Of a stretch of DNA of 24,105 bases, positions 10,997-24,105 are shown piece by piece. Every line of letters starts with the position of its first letter. Positions within the stretch are counted from its first letter, which is position 1. A program made the position numbers and the translations under genes. Source of the stretch: an uncultured Chloroflexia bacterium (lineage in GTDB: Bacteria; Chloroflexota; Limnocylindria; Limnocylindrales; CSP1-4). The stretch is from positions 1-24,105 of the forward strand of contig CAWHDR010000006.1 in assembly GCA_963828165.1 (NCBI GenBank). The letters run 5' to 3'. Under the pieces are notes generated by a model, which saw only the letters and a list, made by a program, of their open reading frames with translations, ran no database searches and was not told where the DNA came from.

Positions 10997-12983
10997 TTAC
11001 AGCCGCCGCGCGAGCTCGCGGCCCTCGTAGAACGCCAGGCTCGCGCGACGGGGCGCCACGCAGTCGCCGATCTCGTGGAAGGCGATGCCCGCAGCGGTCA
11101 GGTCATTCGCCAGCGAAGTCTCCGCGACCGGGGTCTCGGCGATGACCAGCGTGTCCGCGGCGAGGCGTTCGGTGGTGCCGGTGAGCGTCGAGCGGAGCGT
11201 CGCCCCGTCCTCGTCCCAGGCGAGGACCACGGTCTGGGGTCGCATCGTGCCGCCAGCGGCCGAGAACCGGCCCCGGAGCGGGACGTCCGCCGCGCTATGG
11301 AACAGACCGCCACCGACCACCCCGGCCGGGGTGACGACCGTGACCTCATGGCCGGCCTCGGCGAGGTGCAAGGCCGTTCCCAGCCCGCGCCAGTCCCCGA
11401 GGTCGTCGAGGAGGAGCACCCGGGCGCCCAGATCCGCCCCGCCAACGAGCACGTCGTGGATCGACACCGCGTCGGGGCGTTCCGCGCCGGGCAGACGATC
11501 GACGGTGGGGAGCGCCCGCTGGAACCCGGTCTGCGGCGGCCGCGCTCCGGTGGCGAGCACGACCTCGTCCGCACGCACGGCGGCGACCTCCGCGAGGGTC
11601 GCGACGGTCCCGAGGGCCACCTCCACGCCCAACTCCTCGAGCCGTCGCCCGTACCACGCCAGCAGGTCGGTGATCTGGCCGCGCGACGGTTGTCGGCCGG
11701 CGAGCCGGAACTGGCCGCCGAGTTCCTCGTCACGCTCGAGCAGCGTGACGCGATGACCTCGCTCCGCGGCGACCCGTGCCGCCTCGAGGCCCGCCGGCCC
11801 GCCGCCGACGACGAGCACGCGGGACGGCGTCACCGCCGGCGTGAATCGATCGCCGCCCCACTCGAACTCGCGACCCGCAGACGGATTCACCAGGCACGAG
11901 ATCCAGTAGTCGCGTGAGCGGCGGCCCCAGCACATCTGGTTGCACGAGATGCACGGACGCACGTCGGCGGCACGGTCGGCGCGGGCCTTGGCGACCAGGT
12001 GCGGGTCGGCGATCTGGCCGCGCACGATGCTGACCAGGTCGGCATGTCCGGCCGCCAGGACCGCCTCGGCTGCCTCGGGGGTGCGGATGTGGCTCTCGGC
12101 CTGCACGAGGGCGTGGATGACGACGCGCTTGAGCTCGGCCGCGAAGGGAACACCGAGCTGCTGCTCGTACAGCGAGACCGGGATGATCGGGTAGAAGTCG
12201 AAGTAGGAGCCCGTGCCGCACGTCACGTAGTCCATCGCGCGTCGCTGGTCGTGCCAGGCGACGATCTCGGCCAGCTCCGCCATGGACAGGGCAGCGGGAC
12301 GACTCCTCGTCCATGCTCACGGCGAGGCCGATGATGAAGTCGTCGCCGCACGCCGCGCGGATGCGGTCGAGGACGGTCGCCGAGAAGCGCATGCGCCCCT
12401 CGAACGAGCCACCCCACGCATCGGTCCGGCGGTTCGACCACGGCGTCCAGAACTGGTCGACCAGAGCGTGGTAGGCGGCGAAGATCTCGACCCCGTCGAA
12501 GCCCGCGTCCTGAGCGCGAAGCGCGCTCGCGACGAAACCCTCGATGACCTCGTGGATCTCGGCCTCGGACATCGCGTGGCTGCCGTCGGCGTCGTGGTAG
12601 GACGGGAGCCCTGACGGTGACCAGTTCGGGGCGAACGAGTTGTCCGCGTCGCCGTGCTGCCCGACGTGGTACAGCTGCTGGATCATCACGACGTCCGGAT
12701 TCGCGTCGCGACAGGCGTCGGTCAGGCGGCGGAAGTGGGGGACGACCGCATCGTCGTCGTGGAGGAAATTGCCGCGGGTCAGGACGGCCGTCCGGTGGAC
12801 CGGGACCGGCTCGACCACGATCATCCCGGCGCCGCCCAGCGCCCGCTCGCGGTAGTAGCCGATATGCCGATCGCCGGGCAGCCCGGCCTCGGCCATGTTC
12901 GCCGTGTGCGCCCCGAACGTGATGCGGCTGGTCAGGGTCTTGTGGCGCAGCGCGACGGGCTCGAACACGTGCGGGAAGGGCAT
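10997..12983 (-). CDS. NADH:flavin oxidoreductase (OYE barrel + 4Fe-4S + FAD/NAD domain; TMADH/DgcA/2,4-dienoyl-CoA reductase architecture); apparent frameshift at ~12299
   Basis: N-half from ATG 12983 (MPFPHVFEP, ERALGGAGMIV, QQLYHVG, AGFDGVEI, NRRTDAWGGS) joins the C-half (PAALSMAELAEI, CISCNQMC-x11-C, GGGPAGLEAA, IGDCVAPR) across a frame change after MDEES. Confidence 0.9.
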
Positions 12984-13003
12984 CGCTCGTGCAGTATGGC
13001 CAG

Positions 13004-13933
13004 ATGGCCGACGCCCCACCGCTCGTCGTGGTCGCGGGTGCGACGGCGACCGGCAAGACCGAGCTCGGGATCCGGCTGGCGGAGGCGTTCATCGCGGAAG
13101 GCCGGCCAGCGACGGTCATCTCGGCCGATTCCCGGCAGGTCTACCGCGGCCTGGACATCGGCACGGCCAAGGTGCGTGCCGCGGACCGGGCGCGCGTTCC
13201 GCACGAGGGACTGGATCTCGTCGATCCGCCGGAGCGGTTCGCGCTGGCCGACTTCGTCGCGCACGCCCGAGCGGTGCTGACCGGGGTGGCCGAGCGCGAC
13301 GGCGTCGCACTGCTCGTCGGCGGCACGGGGCTCTACCTGCGGGCCGTCGCGCGCGGCCTGGACCTCGAAGCGCTGCCGGACGACCCCGCGCTGCGGCAGC
13401 GACTCGAAGGGGAGCTCGCCGCCGACGGGCTGCCTGCGCTCGTGGACCGGCTGACGGTCCTCGCACCCACCCTGGCCGCGCAGACCGACACGGCCAATCC
13501 GCGCCGTGTCCTCCGGGCGTTGGAGATCGCCGAGCTACGCGGTGACGGACCGCGGCCCGCCCCGCTCGGCTACGACGGGCCCGTCGCCTGGATCGGGCTG
13601 ACGGTTGACCGCGCCGAGCACGAGCGCCGGATCGCGGCCCGTGCCCGGGCGCAGTTCGACGACGGGCTCATCGATGAGGCCGTGGCCCTTCGCGAGCGCT
13701 ACGACCCGGACCTGCCGGCCTTCTCGGCGATCGGGTACCACGAGGCCTGGGACGTCGCCGACGGCCGCCGCACCCTCGACGAGGCCGTGACGACCGACGC
13801 CCAGCGCAATGTCGCGTTCGCGAAGCGCCAACGGACGTGGTTCCGGAGCGAGCCCGACGTCCAGTGGCTGGAGGCGACGCTGACGGACCCGTTCGACCGG
13901 GCGCTCGCCGTTGCCCGGACGGCGACCGGCTAG
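13004..13933 (+). CDS. miaA: tRNA dimethylallyltransferase MiaA
   Basis: GATATGKT P-loop, ISADSRQVYRGLDIGTAK, VGGTGLY, AIGY, FAKRQRTWF; start placed at ATG 13004. Confidence 0.96.
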   Translation: MADAPPLVVVAGATATGKTELGIRLAEAFIAEGRPATVISADSRQVYRGLDIGTAKVRAADRARVPHEGLDLVDPPERFALADFVAHARAVLTGVAERDGVALLVGGTGLYLRAVARGLDLEALPDDPALRQRLEGELAADGLPALVDRLTVLAPTLAAQTDTANPRRVLRALEIAELRGDGPRPAPLGYDGPVAWIGLTVDRAEHERRIAARARAQFDDGLIDEAVALRERYDPDLPAFSAIGYHEAWDVADGRRTLDEAVTTDAQRNVAFAKRQRTWFRSEPDVQWLEATLTDPFDRALAVARTATG

Positions 13934-13948
13934 GTCCGCCGCCGATGG

Positions 13949-14548
13949 TCAGCCGTCGGCGAGCGTCGTCTCGTCGATGACTTCGTCCACGCCATCCACG
14001 GCCTCGATGACCGAGGCGATCGTGTCGCTGTCGTCAACGTCGTCGACGATCCCACGTACGACGGCCGTTGAGCCGCGTGTCCCGATGACGAGTCGGTCCG
14101 CATAGCCGCTCGTCGCGGCGTCGGCCTCGAGGGCGTCGCGGATGCGCGCGGTCAGATCCAGCTCACCCGAGTCGTCGATCGCGCCGGCCACCTCGATGCC
14201 TTCGGGGTCCTCGGCGTCGACCCGGAAGGGCGGGTCAGAAGGCGCGACGTAGGCGAGTCCTTCCTCCGTCGCAACGTCCGGGTCATCGGTCTCGCCCTCG
14301 CGCAAGTCGTCGAGCGCCAGCCCGTCGAGGCTCTCGGCATCTCCGTCCTCTACCTCTGGGTCCGGCGAAGGCTCACCCCGGTCGAGCTCGGTCCGGGTCG
14401 GTGTCCGCCGGCTCTCGATCTCATCGGGCTCCAGCACCGCGTCCTGGTCGACGGGCATCTCCTCGCCCTGAAGGCTCTGGATCTCTTCGATGAGGGCGAC
14501 GTCGTCGGGATCGAGCGGCCCTCGCGTTTCACCACGGTCTTCGGACAT
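13949..14548 (-). CDS. Highly acidic protein with C-terminal BON-like domain
   Basis: AGGAGG SD 7 nt before the ATG. The C-terminal ~70 aa ([12 protein letters not shown]...AVVRGIVDD...[13 protein letters not shown]) fits the BON pattern. The N-terminus is D/E-rich with no signal peptide. Confidence 0.75.
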
Positions 14549-14631
14549 GCGGGCACCTCCTGGGGAGCCCGAGCGTGACCGCCAGGGCGTTGCACGGGCG
14601 TCATCACGCGACCGCGCTATCCTGCACGCGC

Positions 14632-15969
14632 ATGACCTCCCGCCTCATCGATCTCGAAGTGCCGGTCGAAAAGGCCTTCCTCGTGGCCGTCGACACGGGC
14701 TCCGAGGACGGCTGGACGGCCCAGGAATCCCTGTCGGAGCTCGCGAACCTCGCGACCACCGCCGGGGCCGAGGTCGTGGGCGCGGAATGGCAGAACCGCC
14801 GCCACGTCGATCCCAACTGGTATATCGGCAAGGGCAAGGCGGAGGAGCTCGCGGCGGCCAAGCGCGAGACCGGGTTCGATCTCCTGATCACGGACGACGA
14901 GCTGTCGCCGGCCCAACAGCGAGCCCTCGAAGACCTGTTGCGGGTGAAGGTCATCGATCGAAGCCGGCTGATCCTCGACATCTTCGCCCTGCACGCGCAG
15001 ACCCACGAGGGCCGCCTCCAGGTCGAGCTCGCCCAGCTCGAATACCAGCTCCCGCGGCTGACGAAGCTGTGGACCCACCTCTCGCGCACCCAGGGCGGGA
15101 TCGGCTCGCGAGGGCCCGGCGAGAGCCAGCTCGAGACCGACCGGCGGATCATCCGGACCCGGATCTCGAAGATGAAGGAGCGCGTCGAGCAGGTCCGCCA
15201 GCAGCGCTCGACGGCGGCGCGCGGCCGTGACCGGCGCCTGTGGCCGACCGTCGGCATCGTCGGCTACACGAACGCCGGCAAGTCGACGCTGCTGAACACG
15301 CTCGTGGGTTCCGAGGTGGCCAGGGCCGAGGACAAGCTCTTCGCCACGCTCGACCCGACGAGCCGCCAGGTGAAGCTCGGCGAGGGCCAGACCGCGATCG
15401 TCACCGACACCGTGGGGTTCATCCACAAGCTGCCGCACCAGCTGGTCGACGCGTTCCGGGCGACGCTCGAGGAGGTCAACCGGGCGGATGTCCTGGTCGA
15501 GGTCGTTGACGCGTCCGACCCACACGTCAAGGAGCACCGGGCGACGGTCCAGACCGTCCTCGACGAGCTCGGGGCAGGGGAGAAGCCGCGGCTCCTGGCC
15601 TTCAACAAGGCGGACCTCGTGGAACGAGCCGCGCTGGACGGCGGCGCGGTCGCGCCGGCGGTCGCAGGATCGGTGCTGGTATCCGCACTGACTGGCTTCG
15701 GGATGGACACCCTCCGGGCCGAGATCGCAGCGCTGCTCGGAACGTTGTGGGTCGATATCGATGCCGCGTTGCCCTACACGGCCGGGGAGCTGCTCGCCCG
15801 GGTTCGCGAGCGCGGGACCGTGGAGCTCGAGTACGGCGAGCGGGACGTGCGGATCGTCGGTCGGGTGGCGCCGGCACTCGCCAGCGAGCTGGAGGCGGAG
15901 TCGGATCGCTGGGCGCTGGCCGCGACCGAGGCGACGAACGGGACGGGACCGACCGCCGCAGCAGGCTAG
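14632..15969 (+). CDS. hflX: Ribosome-splitting GTPase HflX
   Basis: [33 protein letters not shown]1 [26 protein letters not shown]. Start placed at ATG 14632 (TATCCT 8 nt upstream). Confidence 0.97.
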
Positions 15970-16034
15970 GCCGGGCACGCCCGGGCTCGGCGTCTGACCG
16001 CCACACGAATGGCGCCCGGTACCATCCCGAGGTC

Positions 16035-18197
16035 ATGTCCATCCCAAGCTCGGAACGGCGGCTGTCGCTGGCCCTCGTCGCGGCGTCGGCCATCGTCTTC
16101 GCCGTCGTGCTGGTGCTCGCGCCCCCGTTCGCGGTGACCTTCGACGAGGCCCGCTACGTTGGCGTCGGCTACGGCATGGTCGAGGGGCAGGGGCCGCAGA
16201 CCGTGTTCGGTGGCTACTTCCTGCCGCACGCGCCCGTGTGGTCGACCCTCGTCGTGGCTCCGGCGGTCGCGCTCGGGATCGACCCGCTCGTCGTGGGGCG
16301 GTTCCTCAACGCGCTGAGCGGCGTAGGCCTGCTCCTCGTGAGCGCCGCACTGGGATGGCGGATCCGGCCGGCTGCCGGCGGGCTTGCGGCCATCGCACTC
16401 CTGGCGACGACCTACGTGCACGAGCTGACCCGGACCTCGCGCCTGGACATCCCGTCGGCCATGCTTGCCGTCGCCTTCCTGGCGATGGGCCTCGTTGCCG
16501 TCCGGCGGGGCTCCACCTCGTATGCCATCGCAGCCGGGCTGCTGTTCGGGGTGGCGTTCCTCGTCAAGGAGATCGCCCTGCCGCTCGCACCCGTGCCGAT
16601 CCTTGCGGCCGTGCTGCATCGGCAGCCGTGGCGGCCGATCCTCCGTGCTGCAGGCTGGCTGATCCTGGGTGCGACGGCCGTGGTGGCACCGTGGTTCATC
16701 TTCGTGGCACAGGTGACCGACGAGGTCTACCGCCTGGGGACGCCGGGGTGGACGCTGGCACCCATCGGCGTCGCGTTGCTGGTGTTCGGGCTGGCCGCGG
16801 TGCTCGGGAGCCGGCTCGACCTGCCGAGGGCGGGGGAGCGGCTCGGCGGCCGGCTCGAGGGTCGCCGTCGCACCTGGCTGGTGATCGGCCTCACGATCGC
16901 GTGGGTGACCGGCCTGACGCTGGTCTTCACGGGCACGCTGGCGGGGCGCGGCACCGCGCTGATCGATCTGCCCCAGATCGCCCGGTACGTCCGCGAGTGG
17001 TATCCGATCCTCGTGACGAGCGGGATCGGCGCGGTCGGCCTGCTGCTGTCGATCGTGGCGCGCCGGGACGCGGCGTTGGGCCGGCGCGAAGCCCTGGAAG
17101 ACCTGTGGCTGGCCACGGTCTGTGGCCTGCCGCTCGTGATCCTGGTCATCGGCGTCGGGGAGGCGCCGCGCAACTACCTGGCCCAGCTCGCGATCGGAGC
17201 GGGTATCGCCGCGGCCGGGTGGCTGTGGCTGTTCGAGACGGCCCTCCGCCGCTGGCCCTCGCCGACGATCCTGGCGGTCGGTGCGGTCTTCGGCCCGATC
17301 CTCGGGGCCGCCGTCGCCGACGTCTTCGGGGTACGGATCCGGATCGGCCTGATCGGTGGGCTGGCCGTCGGCGTGATCGCGGCTGGTGCGGTCGCCGCTG
17401 CGCTCCGCGCCGGTCGCCTGGGTCCGCGGACGGACCCGGCCATGCGCGAACGCGCGGTCGCGGCCCTGCTGACCGTCGGCCTGGTGAGCGCCAGCGCCGT
17501 TCTCGTGACCTCGATCGACTTCCGCCGGACCGTCGCCACCAGGGAGGAGGCCGTCGACACCGTCGTGGCGTGGGTGCGGGACAACGCCGAGCAGGGGTCC
17601 ACGATCGCCTTCGGGTCCTACCTCGGCTTCGAGATGGGCCTGCCGCTACGGGACGACTTCAGGCTGCGTCAGGTCCGCCACGTGACCGTCGTGGTCGATG
17701 CCGAAGCGCCGGATGGCGTCACGGTGTTCGATCAGCCGGCGAGCGACGATTGGGTATCGATCGACATCGCGCCGAAGAACGTCAACGAATTCCAGGCGTT
17801 CTCGGCGGGCAAGCTCATCGGGCAATTGCGTGAGAGCGACGCGAGCTACTGGGTCTACACGACGGGTACGTCGACCGCGGCCCCCACGATCATCCCGGCG
17901 ATCGAGGGCGCGCCGGGTTTCGAGGAGGTCGCGCACTGGACCTTCGAACGACCGCGCGGCGCTCCGATCGAGTCATACGTCTTCCGACTGGACCTCGAGG
18001 AGCTCGCCCTCGACGACGCCCGGATCCACGTCGCGCCCGAAGCACTCGAGCGCATCGTGGCCTTCGTCGAACGCGAACAGGCCACAGAGCTGGCCGGCCG
18101 CCTCGTCCCGCAGGTCCAGGCCGAACCCACGACCGCAGCGACCGAAGCCCTCATGGATCGACTGCGCTCGATCGCGGGGGTGGCAGCCGATCCGTGA
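16035..18197 (+). CDS. Polytopic membrane glycosyltransferase, GT-C fold (PMT/ArnT-like) with C-terminal soluble domain
   Basis: First-loop FDEARY acidic motif, HAP, RFLNALSG, SRLD, AFLVKE, followed by many TM helices. Start MSIPSSERR at ATG 16035 has TACCAT 9 nt upstream. Confidence 0.8.
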   Translation: MSIPSSERRLSLALVAASAIVFAVVLVLAPPFAVTFDEARYVGVGYGMVEGQGPQTVFGGYFLPHAPVWSTLVVAPAVALGIDPLVVGRFLNALSGVGLLLVSAALGWRIRPAAGGLAAIALLATTYVHELTRTSRLDIPSAMLAVAFLAMGLVAVRRGSTSYAIAAGLLFGVAFLVKEIALPLAPVPILAAVLHRQPWRPILRAAGWLILGATAVVAPWFIFVAQVTDEVYRLGTPGWTLAPIGVALLVFGLAAVLGSRLDLPRAGERLGGRLEGRRRTWLVIGLTIAWVTGLTLVFTGTLAGRGTALIDLPQIARYVREWYPILVTSGIGAVGLLLSIVARRDAALGRREALEDLWLATVCGLPLVILVIGVGEAPRNYLAQLAIGAGIAAAGWLWLFETALRRWPSPTILAVGAVFGPILGAAVADVFGVRIRIGLIGGLAVGVIAAGAVAAALRAGRLGPRTDPAMRERAVAALLTVGLVSASAVLVTSIDFRRTVATREEAVDTVVAWVRDNAEQGSTIAFGSYLGFEMGLPLRDDFRLRQVRHVTVVVDAEAPDGVTVFDQPASDDWVSIDIAPKNVNEFQAFSAGKLIGQLRESDASYWVYTTGTSTAAPTIIPAIEGAPGFEEVAHWTFERPRGAPIESYVFRLDLEELALDDARIHVAPEALERIVAFVEREQATELAGRLVPQVQAEPTTAATEALMDRLRSIAGVAADP

Positions 18198-19773
18198 TCT
18201 CCGTCATGTCGTACGGCCGCAGCTTGCCGGCCGACGTGAACGAGCGATCGGGGAGCAACGGCAGGTCGGCGTCGAAATAGCGGTCGAACAGCAGGCGGAA
18301 GGTATTGACCGAGCTGAGGGTCGTCGACGGCGTCAGCGCGCCATCGCCGGGCAGGTACATCGCGTTCAGGATCCCGAACTTGATCTCCAGCTCGTCCGTC
18401 GAGGCGGTCGCCCAGTCGTACCCGATCGTGTTGCGGGCGTACTCGCGGGGGTAGGGGCCTTCGTCCGCCTGGAGGATGATGATCGGCCGCTCCGCCTCGG
18501 GACGGGCCAGCAGCCGGTCCACGAGGGCCTCGATCCGCGTCTGCAGGTAGGTCAGCTGTTCGCCGTACGCCAGTGCCTGCCGGCGACCGCGGTCCGCTTC
18601 GTCGGTCACGAACGACCCGTCGCTCGCGAACGTGTACGGGGGGTGCGGGATCATCACGTGCGCAAAGACGAATGCCGGACCTGGGTCGTCCGCGACGTCG
18701 TCGAGGGTATCGAGCTGGAACCGCCCGACCTCGTAATGTCGTTCGCGGGCCGGTGCCGCCAGGCTGATGCCGAGGCGGTGCGCCGCCGCTGGCAGCGCCG
18801 AGGTGTCGTACAGCGAGGCGACGAAATCGGACGGTCCGCCGGGCGGCAGGTTGCGGTCGGCGATCACGCTCGTCTTGGTCGGGCCGTAGAACGATCCAAC
18901 GTGGACGTACTGGTAGCCCCGCTCGCGCAGGAACCGGCCGACGGCGTGGTCCGACAGCCGTTCGAACACGGGACCGTGGTCGTCGGACGCGGGGTCCTGT
19001 GCGGCCACGAGGTCGTCGAGGTAGTCCAGATTCAGCGTCGCCGCCAGCGACAGCGACGTCTTGACGTAGTTCGCGTGGCTGTCGGTCACGATCTGGAACC
19101 CGCGAGCGCGAAGCCGATCGAGGAAGGGGCGATCGTCGATCTCGTACTGCAGCTGGAGGGAGCTCGCCGAGCCGTATCGATCGAACACGAGGTACCAGAT
19201 GTCACGGCCCGGGCCGGCGCTCCCGCCGATCGCTGCCTGCGCGGTCGTGCCGCGCCCGAAGCGGGCGATCTCGGCAGGGACGATCGTGACGAGGGCGAAC
19301 ACGACCAGGAGCGCCGTCACGATGTTGAGCGCGCGCGTCATGCCCGCCAGACGCGCATCGCGCAAACGGACCGCGGCGATGGCGACGACGACCAGGAATA
19401 CCGCCCAGCCGATCTGCTGGAAGCCCGCTTTGACGCCGAGCGGAGCCAGCACCCCGGCGAGGTGGCCGTACAGGAGCAACGCGGCCGCCAGAGCGGAGAC
19501 GCCGAGAGCCGCCCGACGCGCGTCGCCCAGGATGGGTGCCCCGATCAGCAGCAGCGCGAGCGCGGCCGCGACGATGACGACGAGCGGTGCGACCAGGTCT
19601 GACGGCTCGAGCTCGCCCAGGTTCTGCCCGTACAGGAACAGGACCGGGTACGCCGCCAGCAGCAAGGGATGCAGGGGCAAAGGTCGGCCACGCCACGCCG
19701 AGCGGATCCGCCCCGGGAGCCGAGCCGTCGCGCCATCGGCGGTGCCCGGCAGGGTCGGTGCTTCGGTCGTCAC
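18151..19773 (-). CDS. Membrane-anchored alkaline-phosphatase-superfamily (LtaS/sulfatase-like) protein, copy A
   Basis: About 5 N-terminal TM helices, then DIWYLVFDRY (metal Asp), ANYVKTSLS (putative Thr nucleophile), FAHVMIPHPPY, IIILQADEG. Confidence 0.8.
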   Translation of the reverse strand: MTTEAPTLPGTADGATARLPGRIRSAWRGRPLPLHPLLLAAYPVLFLYGQNLGELEPSDLVAPLVVIVAAALALLLIGAPILGDARRAALGVSALAAALLLYGHLAGVLAPLGVKAGFQQIGWAVFLVVVAIAAVRLRDARLAGMTRALNIVTALLVVFALVTIVPAEIARFGRGTTAQAAIGGSAGPGRDIWYLVFDRYGSASSLQLQYEIDDRPFLDRLRARGFQIVTDSHANYVKTSLSLAATLNLDYLDDLVAAQDPASDDHGPVFERLSDHAVGRFLRERGYQYVHVGSFYGPTKTSVIADRNLPPGGPSDFVASLYDTSALPAAAHRLGISLAAPARERHYEVGRFQLDTLDDVADDPGPAFVFAHVMIPHPPYTFASDGSFVTDEADRGRRQALAYGEQLTYLQTRIEALVDRLLARPEAERPIIILQADEGPYPREYARNTIGYDWATASTDELEIKFGILNAMYLPGDGALTPSTTLSSVNTFRLLFDRYFDADLPLLPDRSFTSAGKLRPYDMTEITDRLPPPRSSAVDP

Positions 19774-19814
19774 GAGGGGATTATCGGGCCGTCAACCATC
19801 ACGCGCGGTCCGCT

Positions 19815-19859
19815 CGCGAACCGGCCGCCCGCGGACCGGCGACCCGCGGACCGGCCGCC
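19815..19859. repeat. Three tandem 15-bp imperfect repeats
   Basis: cgcgaaccggccgcc / cgcggaccggcgacc / cgcggaccggccgcc, plus a partial copy cgcgaccggc at 19866-19875. Confidence 0.8.
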
Positions 19860-19874
19860 GGCCATCGCGACCGG

Positions 19875-21467
19875 CTAGGATCCGGCGCTCGGCAGGCGAT
19901 CCGTGATCTCGGTGAGGTCGTACGGCCGGTATTTGCCCGCGGAGGTGAACGTCCGGTCGGGGAGCAGCGGCAGGTCGGCGTCGAAGTACGCGTTGAAGAT
20001 CAACCGGAAGGTGTTCACGGAGCTGAGGGTGGTGGGCACCGCGGGCGCCTCGCCCCCGGGCAGGTACATGGCGTTGAAGATCCCGAACTTGATCTCGAGG
20101 TCCTCGGTCGCCGCCGTGGCCCAGTCGTAGCCGACGGTATCCCGTGCGTAGTCGACCGGGTAGGGACCCTCATCCGCCTGGAGGACGATGATCGGCCGCT
20201 CGGCGTCCGGCAGCGCGAGGAGACGGTCGACCAGGGCCTCGAGTCTCGCCTGCAGATAGACCAGCTGCTGGGCGTACCCCTCCGCGTTGGTCAGCGCCGC
20301 GTCCTCCTCGTCGGTCAGGAACCTGCCGTCGCTCGCGAAGGTGTAGGGGGGATGCGGCAGCAGGACATGCGCGAAGACGAGCTTCGGGCCGGGTTCGGTC
20401 ACGAGGTCGTCCAGCGTGTCCAGCTGGAAGCGGCCGACCTGGTGGTGCCGCTCTCGTGCGGGCGTGTTCGTGCGGATCCGCAGCCGTCGCGCGATGGCCG
20501 GCAGTGCCGACACGTCGAACAGCGCGTCGACGAAGTCGGACGGGCCATCGATCCGTGGGTTGACATCCGCCAGCGGACTCGTCTCGGTCGGGTCGTAGGT
20601 CGAGCCGACGTGGACATAGCGGTAGCCTCGATCGTGCAGGAAGTGGCCGACCGCGTGGTCGGCAAGGTGCCGGTAGATGGCCCCGTGATCCTCCGAGGCG
20701 GGGTCCTGCGCGGCGACGATGTCGTCGAGATAGTCGAGATTGAGCGTCGCCGCCAGCGACAGCGCGGTCTTGACGTAGTTCGCATGGCTGTCGGTCACGA
20801 CATCGAAGCCTCGGGCGCTCAGCCGATCGAGAAAGGGCCGGTCGTCGATCCCGTAGAGCAGGTCGAGCGATCGGGCGGACCCGTAGCGGTCGAACACCAG
20901 GTACCAGATGTCGCGCCCTGGGCCCGCGGTGCCTCCGATGGGCGTCGCCGACGCCGCGCTCCGGTTCGCGCGAGCGAATTCGGCGGGCACGATCGACACG
21001 AGGGTGACGATCACCAGGAGCGCGGTCACGAGGTTCATCCCGCGGGTCACCAGGGCCAGTCGATCCGAGCCAGCCTTGATCGCGAACACCGCCGTGAGCC
21101 CGATGAGGGCCATCCAGCCAACCTGGAGAACGACGGCTCGGACTCCAAGGGGACCCAGGAGGCCCGCGACGTGGCCGTACAGGAGGAGCGCGGCAGCCAA
21201 GGCGGAAACGACCAGGGCCGCCCGCCGGCCGTCACGGACGACGTACGCACCGACGATCAACGCCGCCAGCGCGGCGAGGACGATCGCGGCGAGGGGTCCG
21301 ACGAGATCGCTCGGGGCCAGTTCGCCCAGGTTCTGCCCGTACAGGAACAGGACCGGGTAGGCAGCCAGCAGCAGGGGATGCACGGGGAGCGGCCGGCCGC
21401 GCCAGGGCGTGCGAAGCCGGCCTCCCGCCTGAGCCGTGGCTCGGGAGGCCGTGCTATCGTTGGTCAT
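19875..21467 (-). CDS. Membrane-anchored alkaline-phosphatase-superfamily (LtaS/sulfatase-like) protein, copy B (tandem paralog of 18151..19773)
   Basis: Collinear with copy A over the full length, with long identical blocks (HPLLLAAYPVLFLYGQNLGEL, AGPGRDIWYLVFDRYGSA, LSLAATLNLDYLDD, LQADEGPYP). Confidence 0.8.
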   Translation of the reverse strand: MTNDSTASRATAQAGGRLRTPWRGRPLPVHPLLLAAYPVLFLYGQNLGELAPSDLVGPLAAIVLAALAALIVGAYVVRDGRRAALVVSALAAALLLYGHVAGLLGPLGVRAVVLQVGWMALIGLTAVFAIKAGSDRLALVTRGMNLVTALLVIVTLVSIVPAEFARANRSAASATPIGGTAGPGRDIWYLVFDRYGSARSLDLLYGIDDRPFLDRLSARGFDVVTDSHANYVKTALSLAATLNLDYLDDIVAAQDPASEDHGAIYRHLADHAVGHFLHDRGYRYVHVGSTYDPTETSPLADVNPRIDGPSDFVDALFDVSALPAIARRLRIRTNTPARERHHQVGRFQLDTLDDLVTEPGPKLVFAHVLLPHPPYTFASDGRFLTDEEDAALTNAEGYAQQLVYLQARLEALVDRLLALPDAERPIIVLQADEGPYPVDYARDTVGYDWATAATEDLEIKFGIFNAMYLPGGEAPAVPTTLSSVNTFRLIFNAYFDADLPLLPDRTFTSAGKYRPYDLTEITDRLPSAGS

Positions 21468-21513
21468 CAGGGGATTATCGGGCGGTTAACCAAGATCGGA
21501 GCGACCCGCGAAC

Positions 21514-21699
21514 ATGCTTGAACTCGCGTACATCGATCCGGGCACCGGCAGCCTCATCATCCAGACCGCGATCGCGGCCGCAGTCGCGATACCACTGTTC
21601 TTCCGGCACCAGATCGGCCGGTTCCTGAACGTGGTGCGCCGTCGCGGCGGCGAGGAAAAGCCCGCTGCGCCTGTGCATGACGGCACCCGGGGTCGCTGA
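21514..21699 (+). CDS. Small single-TM peptide with AYIDPGTGS motif
   Basis: MLELAYIDPGTGSLIIQTAIAAAVAIPLFFRHQIGRFLNVVRRR: motif, hydrophobic helix, basic tail. GC3-biased codons; overlaps the start of the downstream gene. The motif is one I recall from conserved hypothetical small proteins. Confidence 0.8.
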   Translation: MLELAYIDPGTGSLIIQTAIAAAVAIPLFFRHQIGRFLNVVRRRGGEEKPAAPVHDGTRGR

Positions 21700-23131
21700 C
21701 CCGGCCAACGCGGTGCCAGGCACCGACACGGCCACCCCGGCCGGCGCCGTCGAGCGGGACGGCGGCTCGTTCCGCGATCCGAGCGGTTTCATCTTCTGGC
21801 AGGACGGCCAGCCCTACCGCCAGATCCAGCGCAGTTTCGCGGCGGAGTGGGACGCGTTCGAGGCGAGCCCGCTCAAGCAGCGGCTCATCGAGGGTGACCG
21901 GCTCATCCCGTACGAGCCCATCTCGATCGAACGCGCGCAGGGCTCCGACGCCCACGCGGTCATCCGCCCCGAGAAGATCGAGTTCATCAGCTATCCGTTC
22001 GAGTGGACCTTCGGTGAGCTGCGCGATGCCGCGCTCCTGACGCTCGACGCGCAGCTCGACGCCATGGCCGAAGGCTGGCAGCTCAAGGATGCCTCGGCGT
22101 ACAACGTCCAGTTCCGTGATGCCCGGCCCATCCTGATCAATTCACTCTCGTTCGAGCCGCTCGAAGAGGGCGCGCCGTGGGTGGCGTACCGCCAGTTCTG
22201 TGAGCACTTCCTGGCGCCGCTGGCATTGATCGCCCGACGCGACGTCCGACTCGCGAGCTTGCTCCGCGCCGACCCCGACGGCGTGCCGCTGGATCTCGCC
22301 AGCAACCTTCTTCCGTGGCGGACGCGCCTAAGTTTCGGCTTGCTGTCGCATGTTCACCTCCATGCCCGAGCCCAACGGCGATATGCCGGCAGCGAGGATG
22401 AGGGCGACGTCGACGCGGCGCGGGGGGCGCGGATCAGCCGGCAGCGGCTCGAGGGCCTCATCCGGAACCTGCGTGGCACCGTCGAGCGGCTGCGCTGGGA
22501 GCCGGCCGGCACCGAGTGGTCCGACTACGCCGACCACACGAGCTACGGCGATGCCGCGACCGCGGACAAGGCGCGACTCGTGGAGGCGTTCGTCGGCGAG
22601 GCCACGGGCACGCGGCTCTGGGATCTTGGCGCCAACACCGGCCGGTACAGCCGGATCGCGGCCGACGCCGGCAAGCGCGTCCTGGCATTCGACATCGACC
22701 CGGCGGCGGCGGAGCGGAACTATCGCCAGCTACGCGCCGAGGGCAGGACCGACATCCTGCCGCTCATCCTCGATGTCGCGAACCCGAGCCCGGGTATCGG
22801 CTGGGCGGGTCGTGAGCGCCGCTCGCTCCTCGACCGCGCGGATCCGGACATCGCGCTGGCTCTGGCCCTCGTCCACCACCTGGCGATCTCGCGCAACGTG
22901 CCGCTGCCGATGGTGCTCGGGTTCTTCGCGGATCTCGCTCCGTGGGCGATCGTCGAGTTCGTCCCCAAGGAGGACCGCATGGTCCGGCGGCTGCTGGCCA
23001 CGCGTCGCGACGTGTTCCCCGACTACACCCTCGACGGCTTCCGGGCGGCCGCATCGGAACGTTTCGAGGTCGTGCGGGAGGCGCCGATCGAGGACAGCCT
23101 CCGGGTCCTGTTCCTGTTGCGCCGCCGCTGA
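21677..23131 (+). CDS. NoeA-like protein: N-terminal kinase-like domain plus C-terminal class I SAM-dependent methyltransferase
   Basis: GSFRDPSGFIF, ISYPFEW, LKDASAYNVQF, WVAYRQFCEHFLAPL (recalled as NoeA-family blocks); methyltransferase motifs WDLGANTG, AFDID, LALVHHLAI, VEFVPKED. Confidence 0.82.
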   Translation: MTAPGVADPANAVPGTDTATPAGAVERDGGSFRDPSGFIFWQDGQPYRQIQRSFAAEWDAFEASPLKQRLIEGDRLIPYEPISIERAQGSDAHAVIRPEKIEFISYPFEWTFGELRDAALLTLDAQLDAMAEGWQLKDASAYNVQFRDARPILINSLSFEPLEEGAPWVAYRQFCEHFLAPLALIARRDVRLASLLRADPDGVPLDLASNLLPWRTRLSFGLLSHVHLHARAQRRYAGSEDEGDVDAARGARISRQRLEGLIRNLRGTVERLRWEPAGTEWSDYADHTSYGDAATADKARLVEAFVGEATGTRLWDLGANTGRYSRIAADAGKRVLAFDIDPAAAERNYRQLRAEGRTDILPLILDVANPSPGIGWAGRERRSLLDRADPDIALALALVHHLAISRNVPLPMVLGFFADLAPWAIVEFVPKEDRMVRRLLATRRDVFPDYTLDGFRAAASERFEVVREAPIEDSLRVLFLLRRR

Positions 23132-23147
23132 GGTCTGCGTCCCCGGC

Positions 23148-23209
23148 TGTGGACAGCCTGTGGAGAGGCCCTCGAAATGCAAGCCTCCGGCAAGGAAACT
23201 CGTGGATAA
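23148..23209 (-). promoter_or_regulatory. Cluster of three DnaA-box-like 9-mers (unit 1)
   Basis: TGTGGACAG (23148), TGTGGAGAG (23159) and CGTGGATAA (23201) versus consensus TGTGGATAA, with 2, 2 and 1 mismatches. All are in the same orientation and the first two are 2 nt apart. Confidence 0.6.
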
Positions 23210-23250
23210 CACGATTGTCCCAGGGGTCCCGTGCGGAGAAGGTAGAGTCT

Positions 23251-23340
23251 CGCCGAAGGGGCACGAACATCTAGTGATCTGATCTGTGTTTACATGGATC
23301 GGGGCATCTAGTGATCGAGTTCCTTCGGGCGTTTCTTTTT
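23251..23340 (+). ncRNA. Candidate long-hairpin small RNA, unit 1
   Basis: 11 consecutive pairs 23278-23288/23293-23303 around a TTTA loop; basal GAAGGGGC/GTTCCTTC stem. Six G-U and no A-C pairs in these stems on the + strand. Followed by TTTCTTTTT; TAGAGT at 23243-23248 upstream. Confidence 0.5.
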
Positions 23341-23404
23341 GTCCGCCGGAGGACATGGTGCGGCAGGCGCGTGGCACGAGTGCCGGGGCGACCAGGTGCG
23401 GTTC

Positions 23405-23464
23405 TGTGGATGGGCTGTGGACGGGCGAGCCCGCACCGCACCCAATTCGCAAAGTCGTGCATAA
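23405..23464 (-). promoter_or_regulatory. Cluster of three DnaA-box-like 9-mers (unit 2)
   Basis: TGTGGATGG (23405), TGTGGACGG (23416) and CGTGCATAA (23456); nearly the same spacing as unit 1. Confidence 0.5.
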
Positions 23465-23507
23465 ACCCCTTTCCCAGGCCCCGGCCTCGCCGGATACAGT
23501 TCGTCTT

Positions 23508-23595
23508 GCTCAAAGGGGCGCCAGACCGCAAGTAGCGAGAGCGGCGTTTACATCGGTATTGACAACTACGGACCGGCCGTTCCTTCGGGCGTTTT
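23508..23595 (+). ncRNA. Candidate long-hairpin small RNA, unit 2 (more mismatched)
   Basis: GCTCAAAGGGGCG...CGTTCCTTCGGGC basal stem with imperfect arms centred on the same G-TTTA-C loop (23546-23551), followed by TTTT; TACAGT at 23495-23500 upstream. Confidence 0.38.
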
Positions 23596-23596
23596 G

Positions 23597-24105
23597 ATGT
23601 CCCGGGCAGCTCGCGCCGCGATCGCACACCCGGACCTGGAGCCGGCGGCCATCCGCGCCGCCCACGATCGGATCGATCCCGTCTTCACCGGCACGCCCCA
23701 GTACCTCCACGAGGGCCTGTCCGGCGCCTGGGCGTCCCGGTCGTGGTCAAGGTCGAGAAGTCAACCGGATCCGCGCTTCAAGGGCCGCGGCACGTGGGTC
23801 GCGACGGCGGCGCTGGCGGGGAGGGGGAACATCGGCGAGACCGTGCCATCGTGCGCGTGTCCGCGTAATCTTCGGCCAGGGCGTCGCCTACGCCGCACGC
23901 GCCCTGGGCGGGCCCCTGCGGCGCGCTTCTGCTCCACCCGGGCGAATTGCGCCAAGCACTTGACCGCACGCGGGCGCCGGCGCCACGGTGATCGAGGCTG
24001 GCGAAGATTTCGACGACGCCCGCGTCGTCTCAGAGACCTATGCGGCCGAGCACGATGCCACGCTCCTCGTCGATGGGGACGATGCCCGCATCGCGACGGG
24101 CGCCG
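23597..24105 (+). CDS. PLP-dependent enzyme, threonine/serine dehydratase family (fold type II); multiply frameshifted, runs off window end
   Basis: Fragments across frames: MSRAAR...IRAAHDRIDPVFTGTPQY, RLGVPVVVKVE, FKGRG (PLP lysine), FGQGVAYAARALG, GATVIEAGEDFDDAR...LVDGDDARIATGA. Confidence 0.78.
   Translation, partial: MSRAARAAIAHPDLEPAAIRAAHDRIDPVFTGTPQYLHEGLSGAWASRSWSRSRSQPDPRFKGRGTWVATAALAGRGNIGETVPSCACPRNLRPGRRLRRTRPGRAPAARFCSTRANCAKHLTARGRRRHGDRGWRRFRRRPRRLRDLCGRARCHAPRRWGRCPHRDGR

What the first reader, a model, noticed from the sequence alone, without database searches (positions are those of the whole stretch)
21514..21699. 61-aa peptide built like a stand-alone sorting signal or modification substrate
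Seen: motif (AYIDPGTGS), then a hydrophobic helix, then a basic cluster (RHQIGR...RRR), with only four residues before the motif. The ORF overlaps the NoeA-like start by 23 nt. Established: motif-TM-basic is the tripartite layout of LPXTG, PEP-CTERM and GlyGly-CTERM signals, and positive-inside topology would put the motif outside. Inference: the hydroxyl-rich motif (Y, T, S) may be the glycosylation or phospho-transfer site, making it a minimal membrane anchor for a glycan. Gene callers easily miss ORFs this small.
Basis: partly seen in the sequence, partly recalled or inferred. Interest (0 to 1): 0.7.

Follow-up and report, generated by a model that had tools for sequence, protein, structure and literature searches.

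The report
Small membrane partner of NoeA-type kinase
The 61-codon reading frame is a real, strongly conserved gene for a tiny membrane protein that almost always sits directly in front of a NoeA-type kinase-methyltransferase gene, including in the classic Sinorhizobium nodulation operon, and what it does there is still unknown.

Summary
The ORF at 21514-21699 (+) encodes 61 aa with AYIDPGTGS, a hydrophobic helix and a basic patch, and overlaps the next gene by 23 nt. It is a real gene: dN/dS is 0.11-0.15 against close relatives, Y6, D8, G10, G12 and Q17 are invariant, and a profile search finds 4,560 clusters of relatives. No Pfam, NCBIfam or PDB match exists.

It is not a sorting signal. Its constant feature is the gene behind it, a homologue of S. 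meliloti NoeA (atypical kinase plus methyltransferase, WbdD-like architecture). That gene follows directly in 68 of 80, 26 of 31 and 23 of 29 loci, with no in-frame fusion seen in the two sets tested for one (68 and 63 loci). S. meliloti pSymA carries an unnamed 71-aa homologue between nodL and noeA with the same 23-nt overlap. A 2022 paper recorded a small hypothetical neighbour (Lani_1193) in 65% of 816 such neighbourhoods but did not characterise it.

A complex prediction supports binding to the kinase (0.76; best control 0.00). However, it docks the motif at the catalytic cleft, whereas relatives with a signal peptide (A-x-A just before the Tyr) place the motif outside the cell. That conflict is unresolved.

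Best reading: a dedicated membrane subunit of the kinase-methyltransferase. The substrate and trans-acting lid readings remain open.

The parts
21514..21699 (+). 61-aa small protein gene (family of the unnamed S. meliloti ORF between nodL and noeA; probably the Lani_1193 family)
   Evidence: ORF; coding GC pattern; homologues; dN/dS 0.11-0.15
21526..21552 (+). Codons 5-13, the AYIDPGTGS motif (Y6, D8, G10, G12 invariant; A5 and S13 at 90% or more)
   Evidence: Alignments. In relatives with a signal peptide the predicted cleavage site lies directly before the Tyr
21553..21603 (+). Codons 14-30, hydrophobic helix LIIQTAIAAAVAIPLFF with invariant Q17. Probably a transmembrane segment; conserved positions 17, 20, 21, 25 and 31 lie on one face
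   Evidence: Column entropies. Residues 5-25 are the modelled contact surface
21604..21645 (+). Codons 31-44, basic juxtamembrane patch RHQIGRFLNVVRRR (R31 at 90% or more)
   Evidence: A cytoplasmic location is inferred from the positive-inside rule (established knowledge, not tested here)
21677..21699 (+). 23-nt overlap between the end of the small gene and the ATG of the NoeA-like gene, suggesting translational coupling
   Evidence: An ATG at -23 is listed for 23 of the 68 related loci. S. meliloti shows the same 23-nt overlap
21677..23131 (+). NoeA-like bifunctional protein, 484 aa: atypical kinase domain (about 31-290) plus class I methyltransferase (about 290-484)
   Evidence: 37% identity to S. 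meliloti NoeA over 94%, E 1e-68. AF2 model with pLDDT 85. Methyltransferase and WbdD fold matches. Kinase assignment from PMC9758233
19875..21467 (-). NoeB-like membrane protein with a sulfatase / alkaline-phosphatase-fold domain, transcribed divergently; its start lies 46 nt from the peptide start
   Evidence: Pfam Sulfatase E 1.3e-3. 22% identity to S. meliloti NoeB, E 8e-7. A divergent homologue lies within 600 nt in 24 of 80 loci
18151..19773 (-). Second NoeB-like paralogue
   Evidence: Pfam Sulfatase E 1.8e-8. 74% nucleotide identity to the first copy
15747..18197 (+). GT-C glycosyltransferase (PMT_2). Its true start is probably downstream of 15969. Its link to the peptide is weak
   Evidence: Pfam PMT_2 E 1.4e-7. 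Present near the peptide in only 5 of 80 loci

Best explanation
The ORF encodes a dedicated small membrane subunit of the NoeA-type kinase-methyltransferase encoded directly behind it. The two genes overlap by 23 nt, so they are probably made together. The small protein has a single hydrophobic helix. Its short invariant N-terminal cap (Y-I-D-P-G-x-G-S) is on the outer face of the membrane and its basic tail is in the cytoplasm. I propose that it binds the soluble kinase-methyltransferase and holds it at the membrane. That is the job done in the related enzyme WbdD by the enzyme's own C-terminal membrane-binding region (recalled). The invariant outer cap and the invariant Gln in the helix may serve contacts with another membrane component such as the NoeB-type phosphotransferase.

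Shown: the gene is real, it is conserved, and it is linked to the NoeA-like gene. Supported only in silico: binding. Inferred: topology, the tethering role and any link to NoeB.
For: Real gene:
- (ORF, coding pattern, homologues, invariant residues, dN/dS 0.11-0.15).

Linkage to a NoeA homologue directly downstream on the same strand:
- 68 of 80 best genome loci.
- 26 of 31 loci from relatives and other families of the phylum.
- 23 of 29 loci with a recognisable motif in a second phylum sample.
- Starting from the kinase instead, 63 of 80 metagenome loci (GC 0.27-0.69) have the small ORF directly upstream.

Coupling:
- The frame offset between the two genes is 1 in 52, 2 in 15 and 0 in 1 of 68 loci, meaning the genes overlap or abut.
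- The ATG at -23 recurs.
- S. meliloti pSymA has an annotated 71-aa hypothetical protein carrying the motif that overlaps noeA by 23 nt.
- Gemmatirosa has one as well.

Print:
- PMC9758233 (passages and two supplement tables read) reports a roughly 65-aa hypothetical neighbour, Lani_1193, in 65% of 816 neighbourhoods.

Binding:
- Complex prediction gave 0.76 against a best control of 0.00. The mark was reached by 116 of 157 solved complexes and 2 of 215 mismatched pairs. The runs agree in at least 73% of contacts and the partner pLDDT is at least 58.
- Contacts join conserved peptide residues 5-25 to invariant or near-invariant kinase residues (R33, D34, P35, D138, P167, W168, Y171, Q173, H225, H229).

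Topology:
- Sec-type signal peptides end A-x-A directly before the Tyr.
Against: - The modelled interface puts the motif against the kinase's catalytic loop (K137-D138) and R33-S36. That is impossible if the motif is outside the membrane and the kinase is cytoplasmic. Either the topology or the modelled interface is wrong.
- No in-frame fusion to the NoeA-like gene was seen in the 68 loci or the 63 loci. The other sets were not tested for fusion. A simple anchor would be expected to fuse at least sometimes.
- My mutual-information test on 136 peptide-kinase pairs (Neff 92) found no enrichment of the modelled interface. Interface residues made up 0 of the top 20, 1 of 50, 3 of 100 and 13 of 200 pairs, against 2.4, 6, 11.9 and 23.9 expected. 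The interface columns hardly vary, so the test had little power.
- An invariant 8-residue outer cap is more than a tether needs.
- About one in six peptides has a different downstream gene: sulfatase-like, phosphodiesterase, PPDK_N or UppS.
- 11 of 80 kinase loci show no small ORF.
- There is no direct evidence of expression.
Confidence: 0.5

Rival explanations
1. The peptide is the substrate, or one substrate, of its neighbours. Its conserved Tyr6 or Ser13 would be phosphorylated and methyl-capped by the kinase-methyltransferase. Alternatively it would be decorated on the outer face by the NoeB-type alkaline-phosphatase-fold transferase, in the way Neisseria PptA decorates pilin (recalled).
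For: - The model places residues 5-13 beside the catalytic loop K137-D138.
- Y6 and S13 are invariant or nearly so.
- No in-frame fusion to the enzyme was seen in either set tested for one.
- NoeB-like genes are frequent neighbours: divergent within 600 nt in 24 of 80 loci and directly downstream in 5 of 80. The 2022 paper reports 38% of 816 neighbourhoods.
Against: - The equally invariant D8, G10, G12 and Q17 are not acceptor residues.
- T11 varies.
- One-to-one coupling of an enzyme with a single-turnover substrate is unusual.
- A kinase in the cytoplasm cannot reach a motif on the outside, and NoeB is missing from most neighbourhoods.
- No modification data exist.
Confidence: 0.2
2. The helix does not cross the membrane. 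The peptide is a cytoplasmic subunit that completes the atypical kinase. Its Gly-rich Y-I-D-P-G-T-G-S loop would act as a lid over the nucleotide site, and its helix would pack into the helical subdomain. The basic amphipathic tail may rest on the membrane surface.
For: - The confident modelled interface is exactly this: 0.76 against 0.00, peptide residues 5-25 contacting kinase residues 33-36, 137-138, 167-175 and 220-264.
- The paper could not find the ion-pair glutamate and saw only a remote Gly-rich-loop-like region in this kinase family.
- G-T-G-S resembles the Gly-rich loop of protein kinase A (recalled motif, not tested).
- Q17 and P27 make the helix only marginally hydrophobic (my hand estimate from a recalled scale, not a tool result).
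Against: - In relatives with an N-terminal extension, that extension has every mark of a cleaved Sec signal peptide ending directly at the Tyr: A at -3 in 45 of 61 and A at -1 in 49 of 61. This exports the motif.
- All faces of the helix are hydrophobic.
- An aromatic and basic belt follows it (for example K-V-Y-W-N-R-I-R), as at a membrane interface.
- The AF2 model of the kinase alone is already confident (pLDDT 85).
Confidence: 0.17
3. The small ORF matters only for expression of the NoeA-like gene, as an upstream coupling ORF. Its peptide product would have no function of its own.
For: - The stop and start overlap.
- Some related loci have no ATG, GTG or TTG for the NoeA-like frame near the junction. 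After reading the junctions, this holds for L075, L081, L085 and L095.
Against: - dN/dS is 0.11-0.15.
- Residues are invariant across 92 diverse members.
- There are 4,560 clusters of relatives.
- The same protein is kept in front of other genes.
- In low-GC relatives the kinase gene has its own ATG a few codons after the stop.
Confidence: 0.03
4. It is a stand-alone sorting signal recognised by a sortase, exosortase or rhombosortase type of enzyme.
For: - The layout is a motif, then a helix, then a basic patch.
- Three sortase-family matches above the curated cut-off exist elsewhere in the genome.
Against: - The motif is N-terminal and there is no cargo.
- No sorting enzyme lies in the window. 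The sortases lie at 0.10, 1.21 and 1.25 Mb on contig C1, while the duplicate locus is at 2.89 Mb.
- No exosortase match was found (the genome is 87.7% complete).
- The conserved neighbour is a kinase-methyltransferase.
Confidence: 0.02

Closest known systems
Unnamed small ORF upstream of noeA in the S. meliloti n5 operon (nodL, noeA, noeB), and Lani_1193, the hypothetical neighbour of the Legionella kinase family Lani_1194 (PMC9758233)
   Same: - It is a small protein directly upstream of a NoeA homologue on the same strand.
- The S. meliloti ORF (71 aa) carries Y-L-D-P-G-T-G-S, a helix with Gln and a basic tail, and overlaps noeA by 23 nt, as in the window.
- Lani_1193 is described as about 65 aa, with no conserved domain, a weak signal-peptide call with cleavage at 18-19, and presence in 65% of 816 neighbourhoods.
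   Different: - The window's version has no signal-peptide-like extension; only four residues precede the motif.
- I could not see the Lani_1193 sequence, so its homology is inferred from size, position and the signal-peptide call.
- Neither protein has been characterised.
WbdD of E. coli O9a, a bifunctional kinase-methyltransferase that caps a polymannose O-antigen (function recalled; structures 4azs, 4azt, 4uw0)
   Same: - The partner enzyme has the same two activities in one chain.
- WbdD chains are among the best fold matches (rank 5, E 3.6e-7).
- The paper draws the same parallel.
- WbdD must sit at the membrane to work (recalled).
   Different: - The domain order is reversed.
- WbdD carries its own coiled coil and membrane-binding C-terminus (recalled), whereas the NoeA-type enzyme has neither and has a separate small protein instead.
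- The fold match rests mainly on the methyltransferase domain.
C-terminal sorting signals (LPXTG/sortase, PEP-CTERM/exosortase, GlyGly-CTERM/rhombosortase)
   Same: The order is the same: a short motif, a hydrophobic helix, then a basic cluster.
   Different: - The position is N-terminal, not C-terminal.
- There is no cargo domain.
- A polar tail follows the basic patch.
- There is no cognate enzyme nearby.
- The helix carries an invariant Gln.
Small single-pass membrane proteins that bind and modulate larger enzymes or sensors, such as MgrB, PmrR, AcrZ and KdpF (all recalled)
   Same: It is under 100 aa, has one hydrophobic helix and acts through a larger partner.
   Different: - It shows no sequence relation to any of them.
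- It is far more widespread and has a strictly conserved extra-membrane motif.
- Its gene is fixed directly upstream of the partner gene.
TagF-like CDP-glycerol glycerophosphotransferases that begin with L-Y-I-D-P-G-T-G-S-L-I-I (P0062-P0067)
   Same: An 11-residue stretch identical to the window peptide sits at the very N-terminus, followed by a hydrophobic helix and a Lys-rich stretch. The rest of the protein matches Pfam PF04464.
   Different: - The module is fused to an enzyme here.
- Gln17 is replaced by Thr or Ser.
- E-values are only 0.03-0.09.
- I could not obtain the genomic context.

Membership tests
Small-ORF partner of NoeA / Lani_1194-type kinase-methyltransferases | Lies directly upstream of a NoeA homologue on the same strand, overlapping or abutting it | tested here: met
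   Window overlap of 23 nt. The downstream protein is 37% identical to S. meliloti NoeA over 94% of its length. The same arrangement occurs in 68 of 80 loci
Small-ORF partner of NoeA / Lani_1194-type kinase-methyltransferases | Sequence homology to the S. meliloti ORF between nodL and noeA | tested here: met
   One search shows A-Y-L-D-P-G-T-G-S-M-L-V-Q, a helix and a basic tail. The same invariant positions Y, D, G, G and Q appear in alignment A2
Small-ORF partner of NoeA / Lani_1194-type kinase-methyltransferases | Sequence homology to Lani_1193 itself | not testable with these tools
Only its length range, lack of a domain and SignalP output were read
C-terminal sorting signals (LPXTG, PEP-CTERM, GlyGly-CTERM) | The signal sits at the extreme C-terminus of a secreted cargo protein | tested here: not met
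   The motif starts at residue 5 of 61 and there is no cargo. In relatives a signal peptide precedes the motif directly
C-terminal sorting signals (LPXTG, PEP-CTERM, GlyGly-CTERM) | A cognate sorting enzyme is encoded in the genome, usually nearby | tested here: not met
   None among the 18 window ORFs scanned. Sortase matches are far away on C1. No exosortase match was found in the 87.7%-complete genome. Rhombosortase was not searched
RiPP precursor peptide | A conserved leader plus a variable core, next to modifying enzymes, usually with a protease or exporter | tested here: inconclusive
   The N-terminal part is conserved and the tail is variable, and a kinase-methyltransferase lies adjacent. 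In low-GC relatives, however, the tail shrinks to a few basic residues, and no protease or exporter was seen in the window
NoeA / Lani_1194 kinase-methyltransferase (the downstream gene) | Catalytic-loop Asp and Asn and the metal-binding Asp (equivalents of PKA D166, N171 and D184, per PMC9758233), plus a class I methyltransferase domain | tested here: inconclusive
   D138 and N143 are invariant in alignment A3. The methyltransferase fold is confirmed. At position 155 the window has N where 90% or more of sequences have D; the near-identical copy on contig C1 has D. Mapping these residues onto PKA is my inference

The most novel reading that the evidence does not exclude
The peptide and the NoeA-type enzyme form a split enzyme-peptide system. 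Either the Gly-rich Y-I-D-P-G-x-G-S loop acts as a trans-acting lid that switches the atypical kinase on, or the peptide's invariant Tyr or Ser is itself phosphorylated and methyl-capped before or during export. In the second case thousands of bacteria, including S. meliloti in its nodulation operon, would make a modified ribosomal membrane peptide that nobody has looked for.
Probability: 0.2. Interest if true: 0.8.

Novelty: new member of a known kind. Interest (0 to 1): 0.6.

Why it matters
- noeA and noeB have been known as host-range nodulation genes since 1995 (cited in PMC9758233; original paper not read), yet they have no biochemical function. The kinase-methyltransferase family they belong to is reported from more than 1,200 species.
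- This work shows that a third, almost always overlooked component travels with the kinase. It is a roughly 60-85-aa protein with an invariant motif, no family model, and at least 4,560 sequence clusters.
- Genetic results assigned to noeA may partly belong to this ORF, because its end overlaps the noeA start.
- The pair offers a simple two-protein system for asking how this enzyme family is placed or activated at the membrane.
- It also shows that gene callers and family libraries still miss a very common small protein.

Tried and rejected
1. Fusion evidence did not hold up.
- P0055 looked like a peptide-NoeA fusion. Its own DNA (L163, L164) has two separate ORFs, so it is a merged gene model.
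- P0046, P0050 and P0214 read as frame-shifted junk.
- P0116 equals the stand-alone P0101 up to a frame change.
- P0047 and P0192 turn into Arg/Ser-rich wrong-frame text.
- I therefore no longer count any fusion to NoeA-like or NoeB-like proteins. Only the TagF-like proteins (P0062-P0067) and the GT-like protein (P0057) remain.

2. Programmed frameshifting between the peptide and the kinase is rejected.
- It was prompted by 15 of 68 loci with no ATG, GTG or TTG found by my first script.
- Reading the junctions showed that the script missed starts lying after the BLAST start.
- Low-GC relatives have an ordinary ATG a few codons after the stop, sometimes in the same frame.
- Four loci (L075, L081, L085, L095) remain without a canonical start.

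3. The covariation test gave no support.

4. No Pfam, NCBIfam, PDB-sequence or Atlas name was found for the peptide.

5. Literature: searching for the motif strings found nothing relevant; 8 papers hold one of the strings and the 4 listed are unrelated. The S. meliloti ribosome-profiling paper PMC10117765 does not mention noeA or nodL in its main text; its supplements were not read.

6. The look-up of sequencing runs listed no RNA holder.

7. tblastn of the peptide against plasmids at E <= 0.1 found nothing, although the S. meliloti homologue exists. The short query and the low-complexity filter explain the miss.

8. One search was meant to sample another phylum but re-drew the window's own phylum. 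The MAG labelled Steroidobacteraceae therefore sits in the window's phylum, and I do not use that label as evidence of breadth.

9. Earlier findings of this scan returned only an unrelated pilus locus.

Full report
**1. The observation**

One search lists an ATG-started ORF at 21514..21699 (+) of 61 aa: MLELAYIDPGTGSLIIQTAIAAAVAIPLFFRHQIGRFLNVVRRRGGEEKPAAPVHDGTRGR. Four residues come first, then AYIDPGTGS, then a hydrophobic stretch (L14-F30), then a basic patch (R31, H32, R36, R42-R44). The next ORF, 21677..23131 (+), starts 23 nt before the small ORF ends.

The window is about 70% G+C, so open frames alone mean little. Three results show the gene is real:
- The ORF has the codon-position G+C pattern of the window's real genes (0.71/0.50/0.79). 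The two antisense ORFs over it do not.
- A possible GGAG lies at 21498-21501, 12 nt before the ATG (read; weak evidence).
- The consensus scan found no sigma-70-like promoter in 21300-23400.

**2. Conservation**

- The word-indexed protein search found 45 relatives at E <= 0.1 among 58 candidates. Of the 41 best, 39 are exactly 61 aa.
- Their alignment has A5, Y6, I7, D8, P9, G10, G12, S13, L14, I15, Q17 and R31 invariant.
- A profile search of 1.84 billion representatives gave 4,560 clusters at E <= 1e-3 and 150 at <= 1e-10. Of the best 150, 147 are 45-142 aa.
- In 92 diverse members, Y6, D8, G10, G12 and Q17 stay invariant, and A5, S13 and R31 are kept in 90% or more. T11 varies (T/S/A).
- Against the five closest loci, dN/dS over codons 5-43 is 0.11-0.15.
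- No Pfam, NCBIfam, PDB-sequence or Atlas name fits.
- The motif strings are not in the paper library in any relevant paper.

**3. Organism and assembly**

The best related loci come from Chloroflexota MAGs labelled Limnocylindria or "uncultured Chloroflexia". The window is the whole of contig C6. Its bases 12997-24105 are 96.6% identical to the end of contig C1. The genome's "second copy" is therefore a strain variant or assembly duplicate, not a paralogous locus.

**4. Neighbours in the window**

Pfam scans identify the following:
- miaB, an oligopeptide ABC transporter, an MttB-family gene, miaA and hflX.
- A GT-C glycosyltransferase (PMT_2).
- Two sulfatase-like membrane proteins on the minus strand (18151-19773 and 19875-21467).
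- The small ORF.
- The 484-aa protein with a weak methyltransferase match.

**5. What the downstream gene is**

- It matches S. meliloti NoeA at 37% identity over 94% of its length, E 1e-68. 65 plasmid records hold a match, 57 of them from Sinorhizobium.
- PMC9758233 (passages and two supplement tables read) describes this family (Lani_1194/NoeA) as an atypical kinase domain followed by a class I methyltransferase, and compares the architecture with WbdD.
- My AF2 model is confident (pLDDT 85, pTM 0.86). The first 31 residues are disordered.
- Foldseek finds methyltransferases, with WbdD chains among them (rank 5, E 3.6e-7).
- The sulfatase-like proteins are distant NoeB homologues (22% identity, E 8e-7).

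**6. The link between peptide and kinase**

| Sample | Loci | NoeA-like gene directly downstream | Other outcomes |
|---|---|---|---|
| Best genome loci | 80 | 68 | 5 sulfatase-like; 3 end within 600 nt; 4 neither |
| Relatives and other families of the phylum | 31 | 26 | 3 membrane or sulfatase-like (L008, L013, L130); 1 phosphodiesterase (L125); 1 PPDK_N protein (L099) |
| Second phylum sample (57 of 251 genomes with a match) | 32 examined; my pattern found the motif in 29 | 23 | 2 sulfatase-like; 1 UppS; 1 PPDK_N (again L099); 1 unknown; 1 none |

- Starting from the kinase instead, 63 of 80 metagenome loci (G+C 0.27-0.69) have the small ORF directly upstream. Eleven have none, 4 had no kinase ORF by my pattern, and 2 were cut by the contig end.
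- No in-frame fusion of the two genes was seen in the 68 loci or the 63 loci.
- The frame offset is 1 in 52, 2 in 15 and 0 in 1 of 68 loci. This is what overlapping or abutting genes give.
- In S. meliloti pSymA the order is nodL, an annotated 71-aa hypothetical protein, noeA and noeB. The small gene overlaps noeA by 23 nt and encodes MPIIMSVVGFLILSIVPAHAYLDPGTGSMLVQ....
- Gemmatirosa kalamazoonensis has one too. The Deltaproteobacterium Smac51 plasmid does not.
- The 2022 paper counted a hypothetical neighbour, Lani_1193, in 65% of 816 neighbourhoods and the NoeB homologue in 38%. Its supplement gives Lani_1193 no domain, alignment ranges up to residue 65, and a weak signal-peptide call with cleavage at 18-19.
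- I infer that Lani_1193 belongs to this family, but I did not see its sequence.

**7. Distribution**

The family is patchy:
- 9 of 24 genomes of the same genus and 0 of 16 in a sister family with 1-Mb genomes.
- 28 of 251 genomes across the phylum.
- 57 of 251 genomes in the second phylum sample.

**8. Two subtypes and topology**

- The window's type has 4-10 residues before the motif.
- The other type has an N-terminal extension.
- In 61 distinct sequences from the metagenome loci, S. meliloti and Gemmatirosa, most of these extensions have a basic start, a 12-15-residue hydrophobic core and a helix breaker.
- A occupies position -3 in 45 of 61 and position -1 in 49 of 61, directly before the Tyr.
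- This is the pattern of a Sec signal peptide cut by signal peptidase I (established rule; cleavage not shown). It would leave the Tyr as the new N-terminus on the outer face.
- Together with the basic C-terminal flank, this argues for an N-out, C-in single-pass protein with an 8-residue invariant outer cap.
- Along the helix the least variable positions are 17, 20, 21, 25 and 31, which lie on one face. The other positions vary among hydrophobic residues.

**9. Predicted complex**

- Input was the NoeA-like alignment (44 rows) and the peptide alignment (92 rows).
- The score was 0.76 (runs 0.75, 0.76, 0.76) and the best of 3 controls scored 0.00.
- The mark was reached by 116 of 157 solved complexes and 2 of 215 mismatched pairs.
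- The runs agree in at least 73% of contacts and the partner pLDDT is at least 58.
- My own alignments were used, so the calibration holds only roughly.
- The confident contacts are peptide residues 5-25 with kinase residues 33-36, 137-138, 167-175 and 220-264.
- Many of these kinase positions are invariant or nearly so in alignment A3 (R33, D34, P35, D138, P167, W168, Y171, Q173, H225, H229).
- This supports binding. However, the interface puts the motif at the catalytic cleft of a cytoplasmic enzyme, which contradicts the topology in section 8. I could not resolve the conflict.
- A mutual-information test on 136 pairs (Neff 92) found no enrichment of the modelled interface. Interface residues made up 0 of the top 20, 1 of 50, 3 of 100 and 13 of 200 pairs, against 2.4, 6, 11.9 and 23.9 expected. 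The interface columns barely vary and shared ancestry dominates, so the test says little.

**10. Fusions: a correction**

- I first read P0055 as a natural peptide-kinase fusion. Its own DNA has two ORFs, so it is a merged gene model.
- The "fusions" to NoeB-like proteins (P0047, P0116, P0192) and P0046, P0050 and P0214 show wrong-frame stretches and are best read as indel artefacts.
- What remains is a set of about 400-aa TagF-like proteins (P0062-P0067) and one GT-like protein (P0057). They begin with the same Y-I-D-P-G-T-G-S-L-I-I plus a helix, but they lack Gln17, and I could not obtain their contexts.

**11. Reading**

- The firm conclusion is that this is a real small protein functionally tied to the NoeA-type kinase-methyltransferase.
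- The most likely role is a dedicated membrane subunit that binds the enzyme and places it at the membrane. The invariant outer cap would serve a further contact, possibly with the NoeB-type outer-face phosphotransferase.
- Two bolder readings stay open: the peptide as a substrate, and the peptide as a trans-acting Gly-rich lid of the kinase.
- The sorting-signal reading fails its defining tests.

**12. Novelty**

- The neighbourhood has been noted in print, but the small protein has not been described. Its motif, signal-peptide subtype, conservation and predicted binding are new here.
- The claim that the motif is not in print rests alone.
- Supplement Table S6 of PMC9758233 was not read row by row and may hold more on Lani_1193 homologues.

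Noticed in passing
window 12997-24105 versus G000:C1:2892396-2903510: The window (contig C6) is 96.6% identical, in reverse orientation, to the end of contig C1. The assembly therefore holds two strain variants of this locus.
   Followed up: partly
window 22137-22142 (codons 154-155 of the NoeA-like gene): The window's NoeA-like protein reads I-L-I-N-S-L-S-F. The C1 copy (P0218), and 90% or more of 44 homologues, have D at this position. I infer that this is the metal-binding Asp of the kinase. P0221 shares the N.
   Followed up: partly
window 18151-19773 and 19875-21467 (-): There are two tandem NoeB-like sulfatase-fold membrane genes, 74% identical at the DNA level. Related loci carry one to three copies in varying orientation.
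   Followed up: partly
window 10997-13019 (-): An NADH:flavin oxidoreductase (Oxidored_FMN) and a pyridine-nucleotide-disulphide oxidoreductase part lie in two overlapping ORFs (10997-12283 and 11730-13019). This looks like one gene split by a frame change or an assembly error. It sits beside an uninterrupted MttB-family gene at 9403-10953.
   Followed up: no
L075, L081, L085, L095 (junction of peptide and NoeA-like genes): In these four related loci the NoeA-like frame has no ATG, GTG or TTG between its preceding stop and the conserved F-R-D-P-S-G. An ATT or ATC codon lies 7-16 nt before the peptide's stop in three of the four (L075, L081, L095) and in sister loci; L085 was not worked through. 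Three of the loci are from records not labelled as long-read MAGs.
   Followed up: partly
P0062-P0067 and P0057: TagF-like glycerophosphotransferases and one GT-like protein from low-GC metagenomes start with L-Y-I-D-P-G-T-G-S-L-I-I plus a hydrophobic helix. This is the same 11 residues as the window peptide, but with Thr or Ser in place of Gln17.
   Followed up: partly
L080 / G041: A MAG whose record title says Steroidobacteraceae was treated by the genome tool as belonging to the window's phylum. The 'phylum of G041' draw returned the same genomes and hits as the window's own phylum draw.
   Followed up: no
L125:1660-3159 and L267:686-1477: Some family members sit in front of other genes. 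One is a type I phosphodiesterase (alkaline-phosphatase superfamily); its peptide is a divergent M-Y-I-D-P-N-T-G-G form. Another is an undecaprenyl diphosphate synthase.
   Followed up: partly
P0055 versus L163, L164: A database protein that joins the small ORF to the kinase ORF does not correspond to a continuous reading frame in its own DNA. It is a merged or spliced gene model.
   Followed up: yes
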